In this document: piece after piece, positions 8,609 to 53,944 of the stretch
Position numbering within the stretch: position 1 is the first letter of the stretch
How the letters are laid out: every line of letters begins with the position of its first letter
Made by a program: the position numbers and the translations under genes
Notes under the pieces: model-generated
The model's input: the letters and a program-made list of their open reading frames with translations, nothing else
Databases searched by the model: none
What the model was told of the DNA's origin: nothing
From: Pelagomonas calceolata
Taxonomy: Eukaryota
Assembly: GCA_918797485.1 (NCBI GenBank)
Contig: CAKKNE010000001.1
Coordinates: 1,054,001 to 1,118,000 of the forward strand
Direction: 5' to 3'
DNA: 64,000 nt

Positions 8609-10907
8609 CTAGCCTCCTGGGCTGTTAGCAGTCTTCACATGGCCCGGCTCCCAGAAGCCGAAGGCATGGGCGAAGGCGTCGGGGTAGGGGCCGAAGGCTA
8701 CCTCCTTGATTGGTGGAGGTTTTGTGTTTGATACGTCGTCCTTCAACGACTCTGCGAATTGTGCGGCCGCGCGCCGCCGTCCTTCGACGCTGAGCGACCC
8801 GCGGCCCTCGCGCACCGCTTCCACGACTTTGGGCAGCTTCCCGGCCCGCCGGAGCATCTTCTTGCGCATGTCGTCGGCCAGCTTCCGCTTCCCTGCGCGA
8901 GAACGACGCCGTCGCGAAACTACCACGTCGACGGCGTCGCGGCGACGCGGTCTCGTGAAGACGCCATCTTCATGATATTGAAGTTCGGAAACGTTCGGAA
9001 ACGGACGCTGAGTCAGCACCGGCGTTCTGGCCGCCGCACTCGAAGGCCGCTCCTACCAAAGCCACCCTCCTTTTCTCGCGGTGCTTGTAGTCGCAGAAGG
9101 TCAGATGGTTGTATACCGAAGCGAGCCAGGGCTCCCTCTTGCCATCGGTTATAGCTCGCGTCTCGAAGGGCGTCCTCGCTGGCGCGACGGCGAGGCCTCT
9201 TTGTGGATCGACATCCACAAATAATACGGCAGCGTCCCTGCAACGTCTATCATGCAAAGAAACGTGGACGAGGAAGCGCAGATGCGCGGACCGCGTATCT
9301 TCACCAGTAAAGGCCGCGTCGTAGTGCGCGCCGTCGCCGTTCACATCAACAACTGAAGCACCTTGTTCAGTCAATTTTAATGATACGAACGTCGCGTCCT
9401 CATCAACTTTGAGGCGCGGGTTCGCCAAGTACGTCGCCTCCCTCCACCCAACACCTAGCCGTTCGAGGGACGCCAGTTCCACGAGCTCCCACGCTTGTAA
9501 TCTCCGAGACAGGTGCCACGTCGCCGGTAATATGAGAATGCGGTTCGTTTGGCGTGCCAGGGCGCAGAGCTCGGTCAGTCTATTTTTAAGGTAAACAAAG
9601 TCGTCGGCGCCGCTCGATGAAGCGAGGACGCCGTCGAGCGCGAGGAACCTGCCCCTACGCACGTGGAAGTAGTCGTCGCCGTCCTCCCACAACATGAGTT
9701 CCTTCGCCACAACCTTCTTGCCGAAGGACGACGACAGAGGCACCGAGGACAGCACGTGCACGGCCAGCGTGTCCCGGAACAGAAAGGGCAAGGCGTAGGA
9801 CGCGGCCACGACGCCGTCGACCAGCGTGAAGTTGTAGTTGCCCGTGCCCATCATCTTGCCCGGTCGCGTCTTTAGTATTAATGACTGCAAAGCTCCGTCG
9901 ACGAGATGGCCCCGCTCGTCCGTGTCAAATCCATCTACTTTGCAATTGTCGCGGTCTTTGATGTAGTTGATGCGCGGATGGCTGATGACCTTCTTGAGGA
10001 CGCAGTTCACCAAGCCCTGGTCGAAGGCATGGGGGTGCCTCCTCAGGTAGTCTAACAGAGTGTCGAAGAGATCATATGATCTACCATCAGTATCAGATGC
10101 GATATAATATAAACCAATATTTATCGTGTAGGGATTGTCCTCGTGCAACGCCCACGCACTTCCTGGATTCAAACCAGCCGTATCGGTTGCTGCGGCGGCT
10201 CGGAACACATCGACCACCGACGGTCCGGACGGTCGCGGCGGCAGCCACAGGTCCATCTCCCAGAAGAAGAAGCGGATTCGAGCTTTACATAACAACATGG
10301 CGGCGTAGTACTTTCCCAAGTATACGACGTCCTTCGTGGACGCCGTCCGAGGCTTCGCGAGGAACGCGACGCGCTTTTTTTGGGAACAAGCATCTTCTGC
10401 GGTGTGTCTATCTAGCGACACGTAGAAGAGTCCATCAGAGAAACCGGCTTTGCGAGCCATCTCAAAATTCGCCTCGAGCAAATCCCCATAGGCCTGGTCG
10501 ACAATTGTGAACACAACTTCGTTGGTGTGAGTGCGTCGCAAAATCTCCCTTACGACCTCTTCGAGCTGGGTCTCGAAGGGCGCATCTAGCGAAGAACAGC
10601 GTGCTGCTCCTCGTGTCGTGTTGAGGAATGTTGGCTGTACGCTGGGTAGTGGCGCGTCGCGCCAGCGGAGCTTTTTTGCCGCGGTTTGTATGTGTTGTAG
10701 CGCTTTCTTAAGTTTTAAAGATCTTCGATCGACGCTCGCGCAGCGCTGCGGCTCCGTGCACGGCGCGAGTGCTCTCGCGAGCTCTAGAGTGGCTGGTGGT
10801 GGCGGTTCGTGCACCGGCAGCTCGGGCGCGAGGTTCGATCGCTCGAGGAGCGCCGTGAAGAGGGCGAAGGTGGCTGCTGCCGCGGCGGCGGCGCGGTGGA
10901 GCTTCAT
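8609..10907 (-). CDS. Two-domain glycosyltransferase (nucleotide-diphospho-sugar transferase/GT77-like plus O-fucosyltransferase-like); exons 10907-9020 and 8892-8609
   Basis: Signal anchor; FFFWEMDLW, INIGLYY, FDQGLVN; LCALARQTNRILILP; a GT..CAG phase-1 intron at 9019-8893 joins the 8609..9019 frame. Confidence 0.7.
8893..9019 (-). other. Spliceosomal intron carrying the shared GATGGCGTCTTCACGAGACC..CCGCGACGCCGTCGAC motif
   Basis: GTGCTG...CGCGCAG; restores frame; motif closely matches the one in intron 50320-50502. Confidence 0.7.
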
Positions 10908-16994: not shown

Positions 16995-19900
16995 ATGGAC
17001 GGCGCCGACGAGGAGACCAAGGAGGAGCCCCACTGGGAGTTGGATGATAAGGCGCGAGCCTTAGCCAAGCAGCAAGAAATACAAGAGAGAGAGGCCGACG
17101 AGCAAAGGAGACAACAAGAACTGATCTCCGCCTACGCGCACTCCGTAGCTAGAGATGCGGCGAACAATAATAAAGATGACTGGTCCGAGCTACGTACAGA
17201 AGATGTGGAAGAAGAGGGTACCGTGGTAGATTCTCTGAGTTCCTACTTGTTCGGGAGTACTCCAGTGCAACCGGAGTCCCCGAAGGACCAACTCATCAGA
17301 GACGCCATCCTCGACGAGAACACGGTCGTCGACGACGATGAATTAGAACGCCAGAAGCAGGAGTCGGCCTTAAGGCACTGGAAGAATTACGACCTCGAAA
17401 CGTCCCTGAAACCGCAGCTCGTGCCGGAGAGAGAATACTTGGCTGCCCTCAAGATTTGTAGGGCCTGTAGGATCTTCAACCAACGTAGAGAAGCGGCTCG
17501 ACGGCAACAGAGCGTAGGCAACATCGCTATTTGTAGTAGAGAAGCGACAAAAATAAAACGCGCGTGGCGGGGCGGGAAGGGCAGAAGAGCCATGCGCGAC
17601 GCCAAACAAGCCTCATTTGAAGATGAAAAAGATTGGAAGTCCTACGAGGACTTCCGGGCGACCCTACTGGGTCCCGGGTATACGTTATCGCGATGGTCGC
17701 ATAGTAAAAAAACTCTGGTACCCTGTAACATCACGGTCTCGAAGGATAGAGATTGGCTGCTCATGAAGCAGCCGAACCGCAAGACGAAGAAGCGGCGCCT
17801 GAAGGATATTCATACCATCGCGAAGGGCTACAAGTCGCCGTTTCTCCGAGATCTGTTACATCAGCCCAAAGAAGATCTTGTGTTGACGTTGATGCTGCGG
17901 CGGATTAAGGTACTACCGTTGGGCCTGGGCGAGGAGGTTGTGGAAGATTCGCTGGACTTTTTGTTCGAGGTGCCGGCCTCGATGCGCGCGGCGCGGCGTC
18001 CGAAGTCATGCGACTCGCGTCCGAATTCACTCAATATCGAAAAAGAGACCGGCCACGACCTCGTCTGGTGGACACGAGTCGCGTCGACGGCGTAATGAGC
18101 GTCTCCGCGCGCAGGCAAGGGCAACTCCGAGATGGTCAACGACGGGAAATTTATTTGCAAGCGCTTCTTCTCGAACTTTGAAAAATTAAAAAGAGAAGTA
18201 GAAAGCGAGGAGGCCTTCTTCTTCAACGACGACGGCGTCTACTGCCAGGTGGGGACGTCGATCTTTGATCGGTGGGAACAAGTCACACTAATTGATCCCG
18301 AATGGGACAAGGCGATCGACGACGACGAGAAGCGCGTGCGCCTCCATAGGAAATACGAGGCCGAACGCTTAGCCCAGCAAGCGCCGACGAAGGCGCCGAA
18401 GCATTGTTATCTCCCGGCGCCGATCCCCGAAGGTCGCAAACCTCAAGATGATTTGAAGTACGTCTACCTCTCGACCGACGAGGACGGGAAGGAGTGCAAG
18501 GCGACGTGGCACAGTCGCACGGTCGAGATCGACTACGGCGAGTTCAAGGAGAAGGAACTTAAAAGAAGACAGCAGCACGACCCGTCCGTCGAGATCGTGA
18601 CGGTCTACCGGAAGGAGGTGTTCACGCTCCAAGCTTGTGGATGTATAGATGAGGACGACCCCGAGTCGGAGATAGTGCCGTTGTACGGGCGCCATCGGAA
18701 ACATCTACGCATCGAGGACGACGATCCTGTACCGGCGCCGTTCGACGACCTGTTACCGTACTTCCGGAACAAGCTCCAGGACGTGTACGGCGACATCGGC
18801 GTCGGCGGCTGGCGGAACACCTTCGACGGGACCTTTGAGTTGGAAGATGACTGCTGGCGGGAACTTTGTAAATTGTGCGAGAAGGGGTCGAGGGAACAGA
18901 AGTCGGCGGGCCGGAAATTGCTCCACGCTCTAGATGGGCGAAGCGCCGAGACGGACGACGAGGGCGACACGCCCAGTGGCTTTGCGGCCTGGCGGTCGTT
19001 TTCATTCTCCTCATTCAGTCCAAGAGCTCGCAAAGACACCTCTACCTCTATCGAGACCACGACGACAGCTTCCGAAGATGAGGATAAACCTCGAGTAGAA
19101 GTAGATGAAGCGTTGCGGAAGAAGCGGGAGCAGGCCGTGTTGGATGCGCTCTGGAAGAAGAAGGATCAAAAAGAGGGCACGATGTGGCGGAAGTCGGAAC
19201 GCGGCGTCCCCTTACGCCATCGACGCGACTCGTCACGGCCCGGGACGCGTCGACGGCGTCCCGAGACACTTATATACAACACAGGTCGCCGCGGAGCTTC
19301 AACACGGCGCAGAAGAAGGCCCTCGAGAAGGAGAAAAGGGACTTGGAAAAAGAAGCGCAGAAACGCATCGCCGAGGAGAAGGCCAAGGAGGAGGCGCGTG
19401 CGCGGCGTCCCGTCGTGTAGAGTCACGCCCTCAACTTGTGTCCATCTCACGATGACGTGGGTGGCCATTCGGACCGCGTTGACGGAAACGCTCCGCGCAG
19501 GCGGCCGAGAAGGAACGACGATTGGCTTTAGGTGAAGATGATAGCGAGGACGAGGCCACCGAAGCGAAGGAGGACGACGAGGCCAAGGAGGAGGCCCCAT
19601 CGGAGGAGAGCGACGAGGACGAGGCCAGGGGCGCGCCGACGCCCTTTTTTGATGTAGTAGTGTTAGAAAGATCACAAAAGCGGAAGCCCAAGATTCCCCT
19701 CGGGATATCCGTGTCGGAGATCAAGGACTTGAGTGGCATCCATTTTCGGAGGATACGGCTCCACGGCGCGAAGGAGTGCGTGCCCAAGTGTTGTCTGAAG
19801 GTCGTCGAGGTTCATGAGGACGCGTGTCCTTACTCGATCTCGAACGCGTCGCAGAACGGCCTGTTGAGGACCGGTGATTATCTAGTTGGTGTCAACGACC

Positions 19901-26321: not shown

Positions 26322-26571
26322 CAAGCCATGCCAAAAAAATCGTGAGGCCTCTGCGGATACGCAGCGAACCACTGGAGGGGTCGACAGCGCTGCCAGCATA
26401 TCTGTCGCAGCCGCAGCGCCTACTCCAGCTGCCGTTCCTGGTGACAGGCCGGGAGAGCCCAGCTGATACGCAGAGAGCGTGGCCTGGCCCGGAGCGCCCG
26501 GCGCCCCAGACGCCATCGACGCGACGCGGTTGCGTTCACGGCCACAGCTGGACTGCCGCCCCTTCGTGACG

Positions 26572-48135: not shown

Positions 48136-48727
48136 TTAGCTCGAGGCCGCGGGCTTCATGGGTTCGGTGAGCCACGAGCGCTTAGGCGCCGCCCAGGCCA
48201 CGGGAAAGCGCGTCTTGACACCGATGATGTGGTCGCCCTTGATGAGCGTGCGGCGGTCGTGGTTCGCGATCGGCTCCGCGCCCGCCTGCGCGAGAAAAAG
48301 ATTTCATGACGCCTTTCTCGTCGTGTCGCCCCCCACGCCATCAACGCGACGTCAGCTTATCGGGTTCTTTCACACGGGAGCCGACGCGCGTCGCCTCATG
48401 AGCTACGTCGCTGATGGAACGTAGAGCGGCGAACTCGCGGTCCTCGCGCGCGCGGCGCTCCGAGCGCGCGCCGGCGCGGAGAGAGGCGAACCAGACTTCC
48501 GGAGCTGCGCCGCGGAGCCGGCGGCGGGCGGGCGTCGGCACGCGCGCCTTCGCGCCGATCATGTCCCGCGTCTGCTCGAGGGCGCTCGAGATCTCTGCGC
48601 CGCTCACGATCGCCGCGAACGAGAGGAGCGCGAGCGCGACGGCCGCGAGGAACACAGGCCGCGCGAGGCGCCGTCCGTGCGAGGCCGGCGCGGGCGCCAC
48701 TTCCTCGTGCGCGCGGCCTTCCTCCAT
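48136..48727 (-). CDS. Small hypothetical membrane protein, probably spliced
   Basis: ATG 48727, one TM helix, intron-like segment with CGCGTTGATGGCGT ending CGCGCAG near 48285; exon boundaries unresolved. Confidence 0.35.
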
Positions 48728-48932: not shown

Positions 48933-49110
48933 CAAGCCAGCCGGCATTTCACAAAGCAGCCCAGGAATTCATACAGGGACCAGGACAGCTCGTCTGCGTG
49001 CGCCTTATATAGCTCTCAAGACGTCACAGAGATTTTAGCTGCACCGCAGAGCTGTGCGGCTAGCCCCCAGGCTGCCTGGCCAAACCTGCGACTCGCCGCG
49101 GCCCGCGACG

Positions 49111-52100
49111 ATGCGCCGCAGCAACAGCGACAATTCCCAAGGCAAGGGACGGGGCCGCGGCGGCCGCCGCGACGGCCGCGGCCGCGGCTACTCGAACGTT
49201 AAACCGGAAAAGCGCGACGACGGCGGCGACGGCACCGTGTATCTAGCGACGGTCACGGAGCTCGCGTTGGACGCGCCGGCCCAAGGCGTCTTCGCGACGC
49301 TCAAGGCGTCGCGCGGCAGATACGACGGCCAGCGCTGTCTGTTGCGAGCACGGAACCAGCCCGCCGTCGAGGCCCTGCGGGTGAACGATATTTTAAGGGT
49401 CAAGTGCCGAAGCGACCGGCAGAACCGACTTGAAGGTAGATTGTGTCCGCCTCGCATCGGCACTACCGCTACGGGCACTGCGTCATCACCGAAGAAGCCC
49501 CTCTTGGTACTTGACTTAAATGGCGTCCTATGTGATCGAGGCACCTACGCGACGCGCGACGCGAAGCAGAAGAAGTCGATCAACCGACCACATGCGGCCC
49601 AATTCGTGCGGTGGTGCTACGAGCGGTTCGAGATTGGCGTGTGGTCTTGTGCCAAGCGCGACAACATGGACCTTTCACTATTTGAAGGGAGGGATTTGGT
49701 GCTGTGCTGGGACCAGCGCAAGTCGACGTCGCTGTGGCCGCGGACGTCGACCGTGAGTCCGCAGAAGCCCCTGTTCCTCAAGGAAATTGACCAGTTGTGG
49801 GCGTCGACGTTCGACGCGCCTCGGGATGAGGATCTGGGCGTGAGTGGCGACTGGCGCCGGAAAGTTGAGAAGCCGTCTGCCCCGAAGCTGACGCGGTACG
49901 ATGCTTCCACAACAGTATTGGTCGACAACCATCTGGAAAAGTTCGAGCGGAATCCCCTCGGGAGCTGTGTCTTGGTGCCGACGTGGACGGCCTCCGAGGA
50001 GTCCGATGCGGCGTTATCACTAGATGGTGACCTGTGTAGAACGTTGTCGCAGTACGCTACGGGCGACTGCCAGGAGACGGGCGAGAAGCTCGCCGGGAAC
50101 GGTATTGTTCCTAAAGAGCACCCGGCGCCTACTGATGATGATGTAAGAGCGGTGCAGGACTATGTGGCGCGGGGCTGCCCGGACGGGCCCTTGCATCCTT
50201 CGTTAGAAGCCTTGGCGAGCGCGCCGGCGCCGCCCCCGAGCGCGCGCGCCGAGGCGCCGCCGCCGCCCGTCAAGGCGCAGGAGGCGGCGCCGCCGCGCCC
50301 GCCTCAGAAATCGTCGCTGGTCAGTGATCGGAGCAGAACATGAACTTGAACGTGACGCGGTCGCGTCGATGGCGTCTTCGTGAGACCACACCGCCGCGAC
50401 GCCGTCGACAACGCGTCTCGCGAGAGAGCTGTGGCGGCGTCGGTCGCATCGATGGCGTCTTCACGAGACCACACCGCCGCGACGCCCTCTATTTCAACGC
50501 AGGAGCGCCTCGCGAGTCAACAGCAAGCACGGGGAGGCTTCGACGCGTCGCTAGCCAAGCGCTTCGCCGACCTCTACTGCTCGTCGCGCCAACATAAGAC
50601 GTCGTGCCCCGACTGGCCGCCCCGGAAGTATCTTGAGCGACGCGACTCGCCGGGGCCGCGGGCGCGACCTCTGAAACGACGAGACTTGGCCATGCTCCGG
50701 ACGCAGCGCTGGTTCGCGACCGAAAAGACGGACGGGGAACGGCACTGGCTCTGGGCCGACGCGGACGGTTGTCGGTTACTTTCCAGAGATCTGAGCGTCG
50801 CGAGGAGCTTCGGTCCCGTCCAAGGTTTATCCAGTGATACTATTCTGGACGGGGAGGTCGTCTCTGAATCTAACGGGAGGGAGTTCTTCGTGGCGTTTGA
50901 TGCCGTAAGGTGTCTCGGCGAGGACGTCGGGGCTCATCCAAACGCTCCTGCGAGGTTGAAGGCGTCCTCACGCGCATTTGAGTTGCTCTCGGACTTAGAC
51001 GGGTTACATGTAATAGCCAAGACCTATTATGGTGCCGATTTCGATATTCTGAGGAAGACGCTGGACACGGGCGTCTTCACCGATGGTTCTAGAAGCACGG
51101 AGTGCGACGGCGTCGTCTTGGCGTCGTATCGCGACAACCATGGGTACTACGACGCGGTGTGTTTCAAGTACAAGCCGCGCGTGACGCTAGATGTGAGGTT
51201 GAGGTCGGCGCCGAGGATCGGCGACATTGAGGCGTCCGTCCAGAACGGCCCGCACGACGTCACGGTCACGTCCGTCGCGATCGACGCCAAAGCTATGAAG
51301 CTTCTGAAGAGCGTGAAGCCGCCGCCGAAGGGCGTGCGAGGTCATATTGTCGAGTGCGAGTACATCGACGGGCTGTGGCGTATCCAAAGGATAAGGACAG
51401 ACAAGAAGAAGCCTAATTCATTGAGGACGGCCTGGGCCGTGTTGGAAAGTATCGCGGACCGAACGACCGTACAAGACTTAGCTGACGCTTTGGCACAAGC
51501 ATGGTCGCAGGATGACAACGCAATTGCAGCGGCAGAACACTACGACCAGCGGCAAAGGGATCGCAACGCCGGCAAACAACTGCAAGACCAGATGTATCGG
51601 CTGCGAAGGCTGAACAACTTCGTCAAGGCCCTCGTGTTGGACGCGTGTTGTGTGCGGCGGGACGCTGCCGCATCGGAGAGTTGTGATACGGCGTCCCTAC
51701 TGCGAGATTTGAGGAAGCCTGGGAAGTCGCGACGACCCGAGAGACGAGACCGAAAGCCCTGCGCAGTGTTGGAGCTCGGCTGTGGGAGAGGAGGCGACCT
51801 GGGGAAATGGAGGAAAGCAGTGGACGTCACCAAGCTCGTAGCGTGCGACATCTCGACGGTGGCACTCGATGAAGCGCGCGAACGGTGGGAGAAGGACGGG
51901 CCACCCCAGGGTAAATTTGTCGTCGGCGATTTGGGGGACGCGACGCTGGCCGCGAAGATCAAGGGCGAGGTGGGGGAGTGGAAGCCCTGGGCGGACGTGG
52001 CGTCGTGCCACTTTGCTTTACACTACGCTTGCGGGAGTCCTGAAAGAATAGATGCGCTGCTCGATTGCGTCGCGACGAACGTCAAGAGCGGTGGGGTGGT

Positions 52101-52542
52101 GGTGGCCACCATCATCGACTGGCTCCAACTAAGACAGCTGTTGGTGAATGGAGGGAGGATCGGCGACTTGTGTAAGGTCGAGTGCTCGGATGAAGCAAGG
52201 ACGCAATTGTTGCAATTACCCGATGAAAGCAGCGCGGGCCACCGCGCCTGGGGCGTCGAGTACAAGTTCACGCTGGGCGACGCCGTGCAGGACTGCGCGG
52301 AGTTCGTGGTGCACCGACCGTCGCTCATCGCGCGCGCGGCCGCGAAGGGTCTAAAATGCACGCTCGAGGCGCGCTTCGACTGCTTCTTGGATGGGGAGAG
52401 AAGGCGGCGGGGCCCGGCCTTCCTCGACCTGGCGACGAGCGTCGGCGTGCGGCCGAAGCATGCGAATGATGACGTTTTGAGTGATGACCAGTTCGCGGTG
52501 GCGTCCTTGTACTGCGTCGTGGCGTTCGTGCGCGAGGATTGA
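49111..52542 (+). CDS. mRNA capping enzyme fusion: FCP1/NIF-like HAD phosphatase + guanylyltransferase + cap guanine-N7 methyltransferase; intron 50320-50502
   Basis: HAD: LVLDLNGVL, RPH, GVWS, FLKEI, TVLVDN; GTase: KTDG, ILDGEV, FVAFDA, DGVVL, FKYKP, RTDKKKPN; MTase: HYD, LNNFVK, LELGCGRGGDLGKW, CHFALHY; phase-0 GTCAGT..ACGCAG intron joins the two ORFs. Confidence 0.8.
50320..50502 (+). other. Intron with an internal ~46-bp direct repeat of the shared intron motif
   Basis: CGGTCGC(G/A)TCGATGGCGTCTTC..GAGACCACACCGCCGCGACGCC occurs twice. Confidence 0.75.
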
Positions 52543-52998: not shown

Positions 52999-53944
52999 GA
53001 CCGCCGCCTACTGGGCCTTCATCGCTGCTAGCTCTGCAGCAGCCTCGACGGTCGAGCGGCGCCCTATGCGACCACCGCGCCTGCGCATCCGCGTGCCGCC
53101 GGTGGCGCCCCTGACGCCGCCGCGCGAGCGACCGACGCCGCCGCTGCCCGCGGCGAGCCGCATCGTCGAGGACATCGGCGACCCGGCCTCGTCGCTGCGC
53201 GCGGCCCAGGACGGCAACACGCGTCGGCTCGCGGAGCTCCAGGACGTCGGCTATTTACTCGAGCGCGTGCGGGACCGCAACGGGTGTAGTCTCACGCACC
53301 GCGCGGCGGGCTCGGGCCGGCTCGAGACGCTGGCCTGGCTATTAACGAGAACGGGCTGCCGCGCGGACCACGCGAGCGACGGCGGCAAGAAGGGCGCGAG
53401 AGGACGAACTCCCTTACATTTCGCGGCGCGCCACGGCCACGTCGCCTGCTGCCGGCTCCTCCACGAGCGCGGGGCGCTTATTGACGCGGAGACGGCCAGC
53501 GGCGTGACGCCCCTCATGTGGGCGGGCTACTACGGGTCGACGAACGCCGCGGCGTGGCTGCTGGACGCGGGCGCGGACCCGCTCTACAAAAACGCGAAGA
53601 CGGGTTGTAGTGTCGCGCACTGGTGCGCGGCCGGCGGCGACGTGCGCACGGCGCAGAAGTTGCTGGAGCTGGGCGTGCCGCGCGCGAGCTTCGCGGAACC
53701 GAACGCCGTCGGCCACACGCCACTCAACAAGGCCGCTGCGAAGGGCGAGGTCGCCATGGTCGACTTCCTCCTGGAGAGCATCGTGCCCCCGGCCAATCTG
53801 CTGCTCCGCGACCAGACGGGCCGCTCGGCCGCCGACGCCGCGGCTGACGCCGGGTTTCCCCACCTCGCGGCGCACCTGCGGTCCTTCGAGGACCGCGCCC
53901 TGGACGCGGCGCTGGCGCAGTACGGCGTGCCGCCGCCACCTTAA
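52982..53944 (+). CDS. Ankyrin-repeat protein with signal-like leader
   Basis: GRTPLHFAARHGH, GVTPLMWA, GHTPLNKAA. Confidence 0.8.
   Translation: MARGARTAAYWAFIAASSAAASTVERRPMRPPRLRIRVPPVAPLTPPRERPTPPLPAASRIVEDIGDPASSLRAAQDGNTRRLAELQDVGYLLERVRDRNGCSLTHRAAGSGRLETLAWLLTRTGCRADHASDGGKKGARGRTPLHFAARHGHVACCRLLHERGALIDAETASGVTPLMWAGYYGSTNAAAWLLDAGADPLYKNAKTGCSVAHWCAAGGDVRTAQKLLELGVPRASFAEPNAVGHTPLNKAAAKGEVAMVDFLLESIVPPANLLLRDQTGRSAADAAADAGFPHLAAHLRSFEDRALDAALAQYGVPPPP

What the first reader, a model, noticed from the sequence alone, without database searches (positions are those of the whole stretch)
49111..52542. Three-domain capping enzyme with a HAD/FCP1-like phosphatase where the RNA triphosphatase normally sits
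Seen: removing a 183-nt phase-0 intron (50320-50502) fuses the 429-aa and 720-aa ORFs into HAD (DLNGVL variant of DxDxT) - guanylyltransferase (KTDG and motifs III-VI) - N7 methyltransferase. Known: cap triphosphatases are cysteine phosphatases (animals, plants) or triphosphate-tunnel metalloenzymes (fungi, protists, DNA viruses); GTase-MTase fusions occur in Giardia and trypanosomes; single-chain trifunctional enzymes are typical of large DNA viruses. Inference: the HAD domain could be a third class of RNA 5'-triphosphatase, or a Pol II CTD-related or recapping module.
Basis: partly seen in the sequence, partly recalled or inferred. Interest (0 to 1): 0.75.

Follow-up and report, generated by a model that had tools for sequence, protein, structure and literature searches.

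The report
Second capping enzyme with HAD phosphatase
A marine alga that already has annotated genes for a normal mRNA-capping kit also transcribes a second, conserved capping enzyme, in which a HAD phosphatase and a predicted RNA-binding domain sit in front of the cap-adding and cap-methylating parts and likely prepare the RNA 5' end by a chemistry not found in our literature searches.

Summary
RNA reads splice out 50320-50502. The spliced 1082-aa protein is identical to an annotated Pelagomonas calceolata protein.

The fusion recurs in pelagophytes, Nannochloropsis and a labyrinthulid. An AT-rich form without the methyltransferase also exists; one copy lies in a giant-virus bin. The fused HADs group on one side of a 99/99 branch. 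They keep the nucleophile Asp but carry Asn at the general acid/base position (29 of 29), plus private invariant residues.

The main correction: the published gene table for this species also lists a WW-TTM triphosphatase-guanylyltransferase and two stand-alone cap methyltransferases. So this is a second capping enzyme, not the replacement for the main one.

Best reading (0.45): the HAD makes the 5'-diphosphate end as an aspartyl-phosphate RNA triphosphatase. Rivals are a phospho-CTD module, a recapping phosphotransferase, or a small-nucleotide phosphatase. No activity has been measured.

The parts
49111..50319 (+). Exon 1 (residues 1-403): RGG region, S1/OB domain, HAD domain, helical and Pro-rich linker
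49111..49221 (+). RGG-rich, predicted disordered N-terminus (residues 1-37)
   Evidence: sequence; pLDDT under 50; RGG-rich starts in several homologues
49222..49446 (+).
   Evidence: VIA-align to RNase R S1 region: Z 9.3, rmsd 1.9, 65 aligned; Z 8.7 and 8.3 to two other S1-type chains; Foldseek rows for ribosomal S1 and RNase E S1; weak Pfam S1 in homologues, E 0.032 and 0.25
49486..50088 (+). FCP1/SCP-type HAD domain (residues about 126-326): D135 nucleophile (49513), N137 in place of the general acid/base Asp, S179, K224, D272-N273-H274
   Evidence: Pfam NIF; SCP1 Z 17.7, CTDNEP1 15.8, Tim50 15.7, UBLCP1 14.8, Fcp1 14.6; conservation
50320..50502 (+). 183-nt phase-0 GT..AG intron with an internal 49-nt direct repeat, introner-like
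   Evidence: junction reads and contigs; similar pieces elsewhere in the window, and 197- and 100-nt introns at the same place in L004 and L007
50503..52542 (+). Exon 2 (residues 404-1082): guanylyltransferase and methyltransferase
50671..51480 (+). RNA guanylyltransferase, nucleotidyltransferase plus OB domain; K478 of KTDG at 50725
   Evidence: Pfam PF01331 and PF03919; key residues of motifs I-VI invariant or nearly so in 19 aligned proteins; PDB capping enzymes
51586..52539 (+). Cap guanine-N7 methyltransferase
   Evidence: Pfam PF03291 E 3.7e-36; RNMT and Abd1 E 1e-14 to 1e-12; Foldseek to Abd1, RNMT and Ecm1

Best explanation
This is a transcribed, spliced single-chain gene for a second mRNA-capping enzyme, kept beside the annotated main capping kit, whose HAD domain likely acts as an RNA 5'-triphosphatase that feeds its own guanylyltransferase and methyltransferase. 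Inferred steps: (1) the RGG and S1 modules would hold the RNA; (2) Mg-bound Asp135 would attack the gamma-phosphate, forming an aspartyl-phosphate and releasing ppRNA, a leaving group good enough that the usual second Asp (here Asn137) is dispensable; (3) Lys478 would form the enzyme-GMP adduct and give GpppRNA; (4) the methyltransferase would give cap 0. Having no WW domain, it would serve an RNA class or compartment that the WW-TTM-GTase enzyme does not. Shown: gene structure, domain order, conservation, and the coexistence of the two annotated gene sets. Inferred: every catalytic step and the substrate.
For: (a) Coupling. In a HAD-only search, 25 of 32 longer hits carry a guanylyltransferase Pfam. 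Of the other 7, one is the intron-cut exon-1 frame, two are fragments that reach motif I, and four are weak hits; three of those four are stand-alone types and one was not examined. Among the top 150 representatives, 27 of 27 HADs with the DxH motif IV and at least 160 residues downstream have a GTase, against 0 of 7 with the DDS motif (the query was the fusion profile, so it favours fusions).

(b) The HAD-GTase pair survives loss of the methyltransferase. Seven AT-rich proteins of 648-685 aa end 36-40 residues after motif VI. One lies in a giant-virus bin beside a helicase and an ankyrin gene. This mirrors the cysteine phosphatase-GTase layout of animals and plants.

(c) The HAD core is otherwise intact: D135, K224 and D272 are 29 of 29, and S/T follows the invariant W178. 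Fusion-only invariants are R211, S213, H274, E276 and E279. By motif alignment H274 falls at the position of Fcp1's substrate gatekeeper Arg299 (paper passages, PMC4436666). This points to a changed, fixed substrate.

(d) Precedent: cysteine phosphatases that split phosphoanhydrides (MCE1, PFA-DSP/Siw14) lack the WPD general acid (passages, PMC9038691).

(e) A predicted S1 domain lies directly before the HAD, weakly supported in the viral-type form too (hhalign 52%, E 1.4e-4; two controls under 0.1%).

(f) The only Cet1-like TTM in the part of the gene table seen is fused to its own GTase, so no free triphosphatase partner is apparent.

(g) Two relatives with a lost or degenerate GTase have also lost the Asn of DLNG (P0195, P0134; n=2).
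Against: The species already has an annotated TTM triphosphatase-GTase and two N7 methyltransferases, so no gap forces the HAD into this role.

DxN is also in 10 of 10 stand-alone relatives. Three of 4 virus records with a stand-alone DLNG gene also have a TTM triphosphatase.

In Fcp1 the second Asp is the general base that hydrolyses the aspartyl-phosphate (PMC4436666), so Asn there may slow turnover or make a substrate trap.

The five best structural matches are all FCP/SCP-family proteins: protein phosphatases plus the Tim50 import subunit. The full-length model does not fix the domain packing (pTM 0.44). I found no biochemical data on any DLNG protein.
Confidence: 0.45

Rival explanations
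1. The HAD is a protein-directed module: it binds or slowly dephosphorylates phospho-CTD of Pol II or Spt5 and recruits a GTase-MTase (TbCgm1-like), which takes ppRNA made by the cell's TTM enzyme.
For: The nearest folds are SCP1, CTDNEP1, Tim50, UBLCP1 and Fcp1. Loss of the general base would suit a phosphopeptide trap. TbCgm1 is reported to work with a separate triphosphatase (PMC11417388).
Against: The species has true Fcp1, UBLCP1 and CTDSPL2 genes, and its main capping enzyme has a WW domain. The only Cet1-like TTM seen is already fused to a GTase (chromosome 6 mostly unseen). The same unit occurs in a giant-virus bin, and such viral polymerases lack a heptad CTD (recalled). An S1 domain precedes the HAD.
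Confidence: 0.22
2. It is a recapping enzyme. The HAD works as a phosphotransferase (ATP to Asp135 to 5'-monophosphate RNA), giving ppRNA from decapped or cleaved RNA, which is then recapped and methylated in one chain. It would be a functional analogue of trypanosome TbCe1 plus TbCmt1.
For: A second capping set beside a complete nuclear set is the trypanosome situation (PMC11417388). Without the general base, the aspartyl-phosphate would be kept from water and could pass to a phosphate acceptor (inference; P-type ATPases form such an intermediate from ATP, recalled). Dcp1, Dcp2 and DcpS are annotated in the species. RGG and S1 modules suit mRNP binding.
Against: No nucleotide-binding domain for ATP is seen. 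No HAD RNA kinase turned up in the searches. Localisation is unknown.
Confidence: 0.2
3. The HAD acts on a small molecule or another RNA end, for example hydrolysing the pyrophosphate released by guanylylation, clearing m7GDP, or healing 3'-phosphates, and only assists the capping core.
For: An acid-less active site suits any phosphoanhydride. There are faint HAD_SAK_2 hits in 2 of 12 members (best E 0.0078). Stand-alone DLNG proteins exist without capping domains.
Against: It leaves the source of ppRNA unexplained. The capless, open C0-type fold suits macromolecular substrates (established HAD knowledge, recalled).
Confidence: 0.13

Closest known systems
Poxvirus D1 / NCLDV trifunctional capping enzymes (TTM-GTase-N7 MTase; PDB 4CKB)
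   Same: Single chain, same order of GTase then MTase behind an N-terminal phosphohydrolase; top Foldseek hit for the full model, E 2e-26.
   Different: The N-terminal module is S1 plus an Asp-nucleophile HAD, not a triphosphate tunnel. The gene is a cellular, intron-bearing nuclear gene and coexists with a separate TTM-GTase.
Animal and plant RNGTT/Mce1 (cysteine phosphatase-GTase)
   Same: A phosphatase borrowed from a protein-phosphatase family, fused ahead of the GTase and lacking the usual general acid. The MTase-less viral-type form has this two-enzyme layout.
   Different: HAD fold with a phospho-Asp and Mg site instead of a metal-independent phospho-Cys; extra S1 and fused MTase; triphosphatase activity not shown.
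Trypanosoma brucei TbCgm1 and TbCe1
   Same: A GTase-MTase fusion, and an organism with two capping sets.
   Different: TbCgm1 uses a separate TTM enzyme and TbCe1 has an RNA kinase domain with no MTase; neither has a HAD or S1 domain in the passages read.
FCP1/SCP/CTDNEP1/UBLCP1 HAD phosphatases (Pfam PF03031)
   Same: Fold (Z 14.6-17.7), nucleophile Asp, motif II Ser, motif III Lys, motif IV Asp.
   Different: DLNGVL instead of DxDxT/V, so no general acid/base Asp; private R211, S213, H274, E276 and E279; fused to capping domains.
Stand-alone DLNG-type FCP1-homology proteins of plants, fungi-like records and giant viruses (uncharacterised)
   Same: D-x-N-G motif I, WS motif II, KP-F-K motif III; nearest relatives of the fused HAD.
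   Different: Motif IV is DDS/DDT in 10 of 10 against DNH/DDH in 29 of 29 fused copies; no capping domains; function unknown.

Membership tests
mRNA guanylyltransferase (covalent nucleotidyltransferase) | Motifs I (KxDG), III, IIIa, IV, V, VI and a C-terminal OB domain | tested here: met
   K478, G481, R483, D519, G520, E521, F535, D536, D605, G606, K625, K627 and R701 are 19 of 19; D480 and D703 are 18 of 19; PF03919
mRNA guanylyltransferase (covalent nucleotidyltransferase) | Enzyme-GMP formation and GMP transfer to ppRNA | not testable with these tools
   needs an assay
Cap guanine-N7 methyltransferase (RNMT/Abd1) | Class I SAM fold with the GxGxGGD motif and the cap-binding (F)ALHY region | tested here: met
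   PF03291 E 3.7e-36; RNMT and Abd1 hits; G831 and D835 18 of 19, the miss being a partial sequence
FCP/SCP HAD phosphatases | Capless HAD Rossmannoid fold of the FCP/SCP type | tested here: met
   Z 17.7 SCP1, 14.6 Fcp1, best unrelated HAD about 10
FCP/SCP HAD phosphatases | DxDxT/V motif with the second Asp as general acid/base | tested here: not met
   N137 in 29 of 29 fused copies; the role of Asp172 in Fcp1 is from PMC4436666 passages
FCP/SCP HAD phosphatases | Motif II Ser/Thr, motif III Lys, motif IV Asp | tested here: met
   K224 and D272 29 of 29; WS/WT in all 8 rows
FCP/SCP HAD phosphatases | Dephosphorylation of Pol II CTD or other phosphoproteins | not testable with these tools
   needs an assay
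TTM (Cet1-type or viral) RNA triphosphatase | Triphosphate-tunnel beta barrel with two glutamate motifs | tested here: not met
   the N-terminal 403 residues model confidently (pTM 0.80) as S1 plus HAD; no PF02940 hit
Cysteine-phosphatase RNA triphosphatase (Mce1 type) | HCxxxxxR P-loop in a PTP fold | tested here: not met
   no DSPc hit; HAD fold
S1 RNA-binding domain | Five-stranded OB barrel of the S1 type | tested here: met
   Z 9.3, rmsd 1.9 over 65 residues to RNase R; Pfam S1 only below the cut-off in homologues
S1 RNA-binding domain | RNA binding | not testable with these tools
   needs an assay
TbCe1-type recapping enzyme | RNA 5'-monophosphate kinase activity and cytoplasmic location | not testable with these tools
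   no kinase domain seen by Pfam; activity and location unknown

The most novel reading that the evidence does not exclude
A third class of cap RNA 5'-triphosphatase, a HAD working through an aspartyl-phosphate, or the same site run as an RNA 5'-phosphotransferase for recapping. It is built into a self-contained S1-HAD-GTase-MTase that several stramenopile lineages keep as a second capping pathway, and that a group of giant viruses carries as S1-HAD-GTase. It would also give the first function for the orphan DLNG-type FCP1-homology proteins of plants and giant viruses.
Probability: 0.6. Interest if true: 0.88.

Novelty: new variant of a known kind. Interest (0 to 1): 0.72.

Why it matters
Cap triphosphatases are described as two unrelated classes (passages of PMC5172449 and PMC2904801). 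A HAD would be a third, independently recruited from a protein-phosphatase family, as happened in animals and plants.

A second complete capping enzyme in abundant marine algae implies an RNA class or a recapping route that has not been described there. The enzyme behind mammalian recapping is still unidentified (PMC11417388).

A single-chain cellular cap-0 enzyme is also of practical interest for mRNA capping. The test is cheap: one recombinant protein and a few active-site mutants.

Tried and rejected
Rejected: two independent genes. There are junction reads, one contig across both exons, and intronless orthologues.

Rejected: a one-off fusion or mis-annotation. It is conserved across named lineages.

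Rejected: the HAD replaces a missing triphosphatase of the main pathway.

No whole genome was held, so Pca_1p21530 could not be inspected. Its row lists PF01331 and PF02940 but not the OB-domain family PF03919, and its active sites are unchecked.

Origin of the viral-type form is unresolved. Its HAD sits inside the fused group (on a long branch with skewed composition). The GTase tree put all HAD-fused GTases on one side of a branch in only 14% of bootstrap trees, and the one-clade test did not finish (P0060 dropped for lack of an end motif; 14 of 79 viral loci sampled; only one cellular conventional GTase). No direction of transfer is claimed.

Of 79 viral GTase loci plus 7 others, only the known bin had a HAD nearby. 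A scan with the viral protein found only itself.

No named diatom, oomycete or brown-algal hit appeared. These searches are word-limited and most hits are unnamed, so absence is not shown.

The PDB sequence search with exon 1 gave only UBLCP1 at E 0.7. The Atlas feature search with the viral protein gave no usable hit.

Literature searches with no description of this fusion in the listings or passages seen; SCP1 D98N gave 0 papers. Supplements of PMC12054182, PMC11980835 and PMC13284251 (6 of 17 files not searched and 4 more too large) had no row on these genes. The RNA-repair review I wanted was not held. Subscription journals and bioRxiv supplements could hold a description.

No complex prediction was run.
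Full report
1. Observation. The stretch 50320-50502 is a 183-nt GT..AG intron in phase 0. Removing it joins the two frames into 1082 residues without a stop. Raw poly(A) RNA reads show the joint on the sense strand: 9 and 5 reads in 2 of 4 runs, none listed in the other 2, all four from one sample. Contigs of 2 of 4 other runs, from two different studies and only guessed to be RNA, carry the same joint. One contig of 3595 nt covers both exons. The spliced protein is identical at 1082 of 1082 residues to P0072, which the collection names as Pelagomonas calceolata CAH0364281.1 and labels only as a cap methyltransferase. Pfam finds NIF in exon 1, and the capping catalytic domain, the capping C-terminal domain and the N7 methyltransferase in exon 2. 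Two metagenome loci encode the orthologue as one uninterrupted 1133-codon frame; L005, the one scanned, has the same GDA1/CD39 and ankyrin neighbours. Two closer relatives carry 197- and 100-nt introns at the same site.

2. Anatomy. The full model has mean pLDDT 83 but pTM 0.44, so the domains are good and their packing is unknown. The exon-1 model has pTM 0.80. Residues 1-37 are RGG-rich and disordered. Residues 126-326 are an FCP/SCP-type HAD (SCP1 Z 17.7, CTDNEP1 15.8, Tim50 15.7, UBLCP1 14.8, Fcp1 14.6). The GTase keeps its catalytic residues in 19 of 19 aligned proteins at 13 positions, and in 17-18 of 19 at three more. The methyltransferase keeps its SAM motif. The top Foldseek hit for the whole model is vaccinia D1.

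3. Spread. A search with the HAD region among long proteins gave 11 hits, all with GTase domains. A rescan of those 11 plus one cluster member found NIF and both GTase families in 12 of 12 and the methyltransferase in 11 of 12, the miss being a partial sequence. Named members are Chrysophaeum taylorii, three Nannochloropsis species, the labyrinthulid Mucochytrium quahogii, a partial Chrysoparadoxa australica protein and a Pedinella fragment. Most hits are unnamed. In the HAD-only search, 25 of 32 hits carry a GTase family. In the 50%-cluster library, 48 of the top 150 have a HAD. Of these, 27 of 27 with a DxH motif IV and room downstream have a GTase; 7 DxH rows were too short to tell; 7 were unclassified (5 with a GTase); 7 of the DDS type had none. 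An AT-rich form without the methyltransferase also exists: seven proteins of 648-685 aa end 36-40 residues after motif VI, and an eighth is truncated. One of them lies in the giant-virus bin GVMAG-S-3300012936-62. The others come from unnamed contigs, so they are viral-type by likeness only. Their N-terminus aligns weakly with the S1 region.

4. The HAD site. I aligned 29 fused and 10 stand-alone HADs (P0059 was left out because it lacks motif I; three fused rows are fragments). The fused ones lie on one side of a 99/99 branch. D135, N137, R143, K224 and D272 are 29 of 29. N137 is also 10 of 10 in the stand-alone set, so the loss of the second Asp predates the fusion. H274, S213 and E279 are 29 of 29 in fused copies and 0 of 10 outside; R211, C180 and E276 are 29 of 29 against 1, 1 and 2 of 10. 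In Fcp1 the second Asp is the general base for hydrolysis of the aspartyl-phosphate, and Arg299, two after Asp297, is a substrate gatekeeper (passages of PMC4436666). H274 occupies that position by motif alignment. Cysteine phosphatases that cleave phosphoanhydrides, MCE1 among them, lack the WPD general acid (passages of PMC9038691). An acid-less HAD is therefore compatible with phosphoanhydride chemistry, but also with a slow or trapping enzyme.

5. The key context. Supplement file 4 of the species' genome paper (PMC9481584; I saw passages of the text and searched this file, which is cut after chromosomes 1-5 and the start of 6) lists this architecture as Pca_1p06360. Its neighbours match the window. 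The file also lists Pca_1p21530 (WW, Cet1-like TTM triphosphatase, capping catalytic domain; best match in Phytophthora), two stand-alone N7 methyltransferases, true Fcp1, UBLCP1, CTDSPL2, Tim50, Dcp1, Dcp2 and DcpS. A review passage already places TTM triphosphatases in Phytophthora (PMC5172449). An Atlas cluster with both TTM and GTase families is commonest in diatoms. So the gene in the window is an additional capping enzyme. The domain combination is visible in database annotation. I found no paper that discusses it (listings and passages only; passages of PMC11980835, PMC2904801 and PMC12215270 did not mention it). No earlier finding of this scan matched by sequence or by the specific words. 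A broader word search listed findings of other systems, among them second GTase-MTase enzymes of giant viruses with helical N-termini, unchecked here.

6. Mechanism. A GTase needs a 5'-diphosphate RNA (established). The only Cet1-like TTM seen is tied to its own GTase. The HAD is kept with the GTase even when the methyltransferase is lost, it sits behind a predicted RNA-binding domain, and it has private invariant residues. I therefore infer that it prepares the 5' end, most likely as a triphosphatase through phospho-Asp135 (0.45). Less likely it is a phosphotransferase that turns pRNA into ppRNA for recapping, as the kinase domain of TbCe1 does in trypanosomes, which also have two capping sets (0.20; passages of PMC11417388). 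Against both readings: the nearest folds are protein phosphatases and Tim50; DxN is older than the fusion; and 3 of 4 virus records with a stand-alone DLNG gene also have a TTM enzyme. A phospho-CTD module with borrowed ppRNA gets 0.22, and a small-nucleotide or pyrophosphate role 0.13. No step is shown biochemically.

7. Membership. It meets the sequence and fold tests for cap GTase and N7 methyltransferase. It has the FCP/SCP fold but fails the DxDxT test, so it should not be filed as a CTD phosphatase. It is neither a TTM nor a cysteine triphosphatase. It is built like a viral trifunctional capping enzyme with a different first module.

8. Limits. The taxonomic range is a lower bound. The GTase tree did not settle whether the viral-type and cellular forms share one origin. 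Supplements I could not read may bear on expression or localisation.

9. Verdict. A real, expressed and conserved gene, and a new variant of capping enzyme that makes a sharp question testable with one recombinant protein. Interest 0.72; about 0.88 if the HAD proves to act on the RNA 5' end.

Noticed in passing
window 49100-51100, minus strand: Spliced antisense RNA overlaps the gene: CT..AC joints at 49373/49489, 50029/50131 and 51021/51079. Over exon 1 the antisense depth exceeds the sense depth in 3 of 4 runs of one sample.
   Followed up: no
window 48341-48727, minus strand: A short expressed gene with a spliced joint at 48284/48385 lies head to head with the capping gene. It matches by position the unannotated row Pca_1p06350.
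   Followed up: no
PMC9481584 supplement 4, rows Pca_1p21530, Pca_1p01820, Pca_5p01820: The main capping enzyme of this species appears to be a cellular WW-TTM-GTase fusion with two stand-alone N7 methyltransferases. An Atlas cluster with PF01331 and PF02940, commonest in diatoms, suggests the fusion is wider.
   Followed up: partly
L002:120-770, L022-L030: Stand-alone 156-217 aa DLNG-type HAD genes in giant-virus records. Four of 4 searchable records also have a GTase and 3 of 4 a TTM triphosphatase.
   Followed up: partly
P0155, P0160, P0161, P0167, P0174, P0182, P0193: Plant-like proteins with two tandem NIF domains, DxNG in at least one; two also carry DUF724.
   Followed up: no
P0152: A 901-aa protein with the reverse order, N7 methyltransferase first and guanylyltransferase last.
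   Followed up: no
P0195, P0134: Degenerate S1-HAD paralogues (DIHG, DMHG) whose GTase is lost or decayed.
   Followed up: partly
P0009 and L009:4640-5500: The Mucochytrium protein and the related locus L009 have KSNG instead of KxDG in GTase motif I.
   Followed up: no
window 50320-50502, 8927-8968, 19214-19237, 26508-26538, 53128-53177: The intron shares short stretches with other places in the window, as expected of a mobile introner family. Relatives have 197-nt, 100-nt or no intron at this site.
   Followed up: partly
window 54238-62523: A 2761-aa NACHT-WD40-ankyrin-Tudor-like gene.
   Followed up: no
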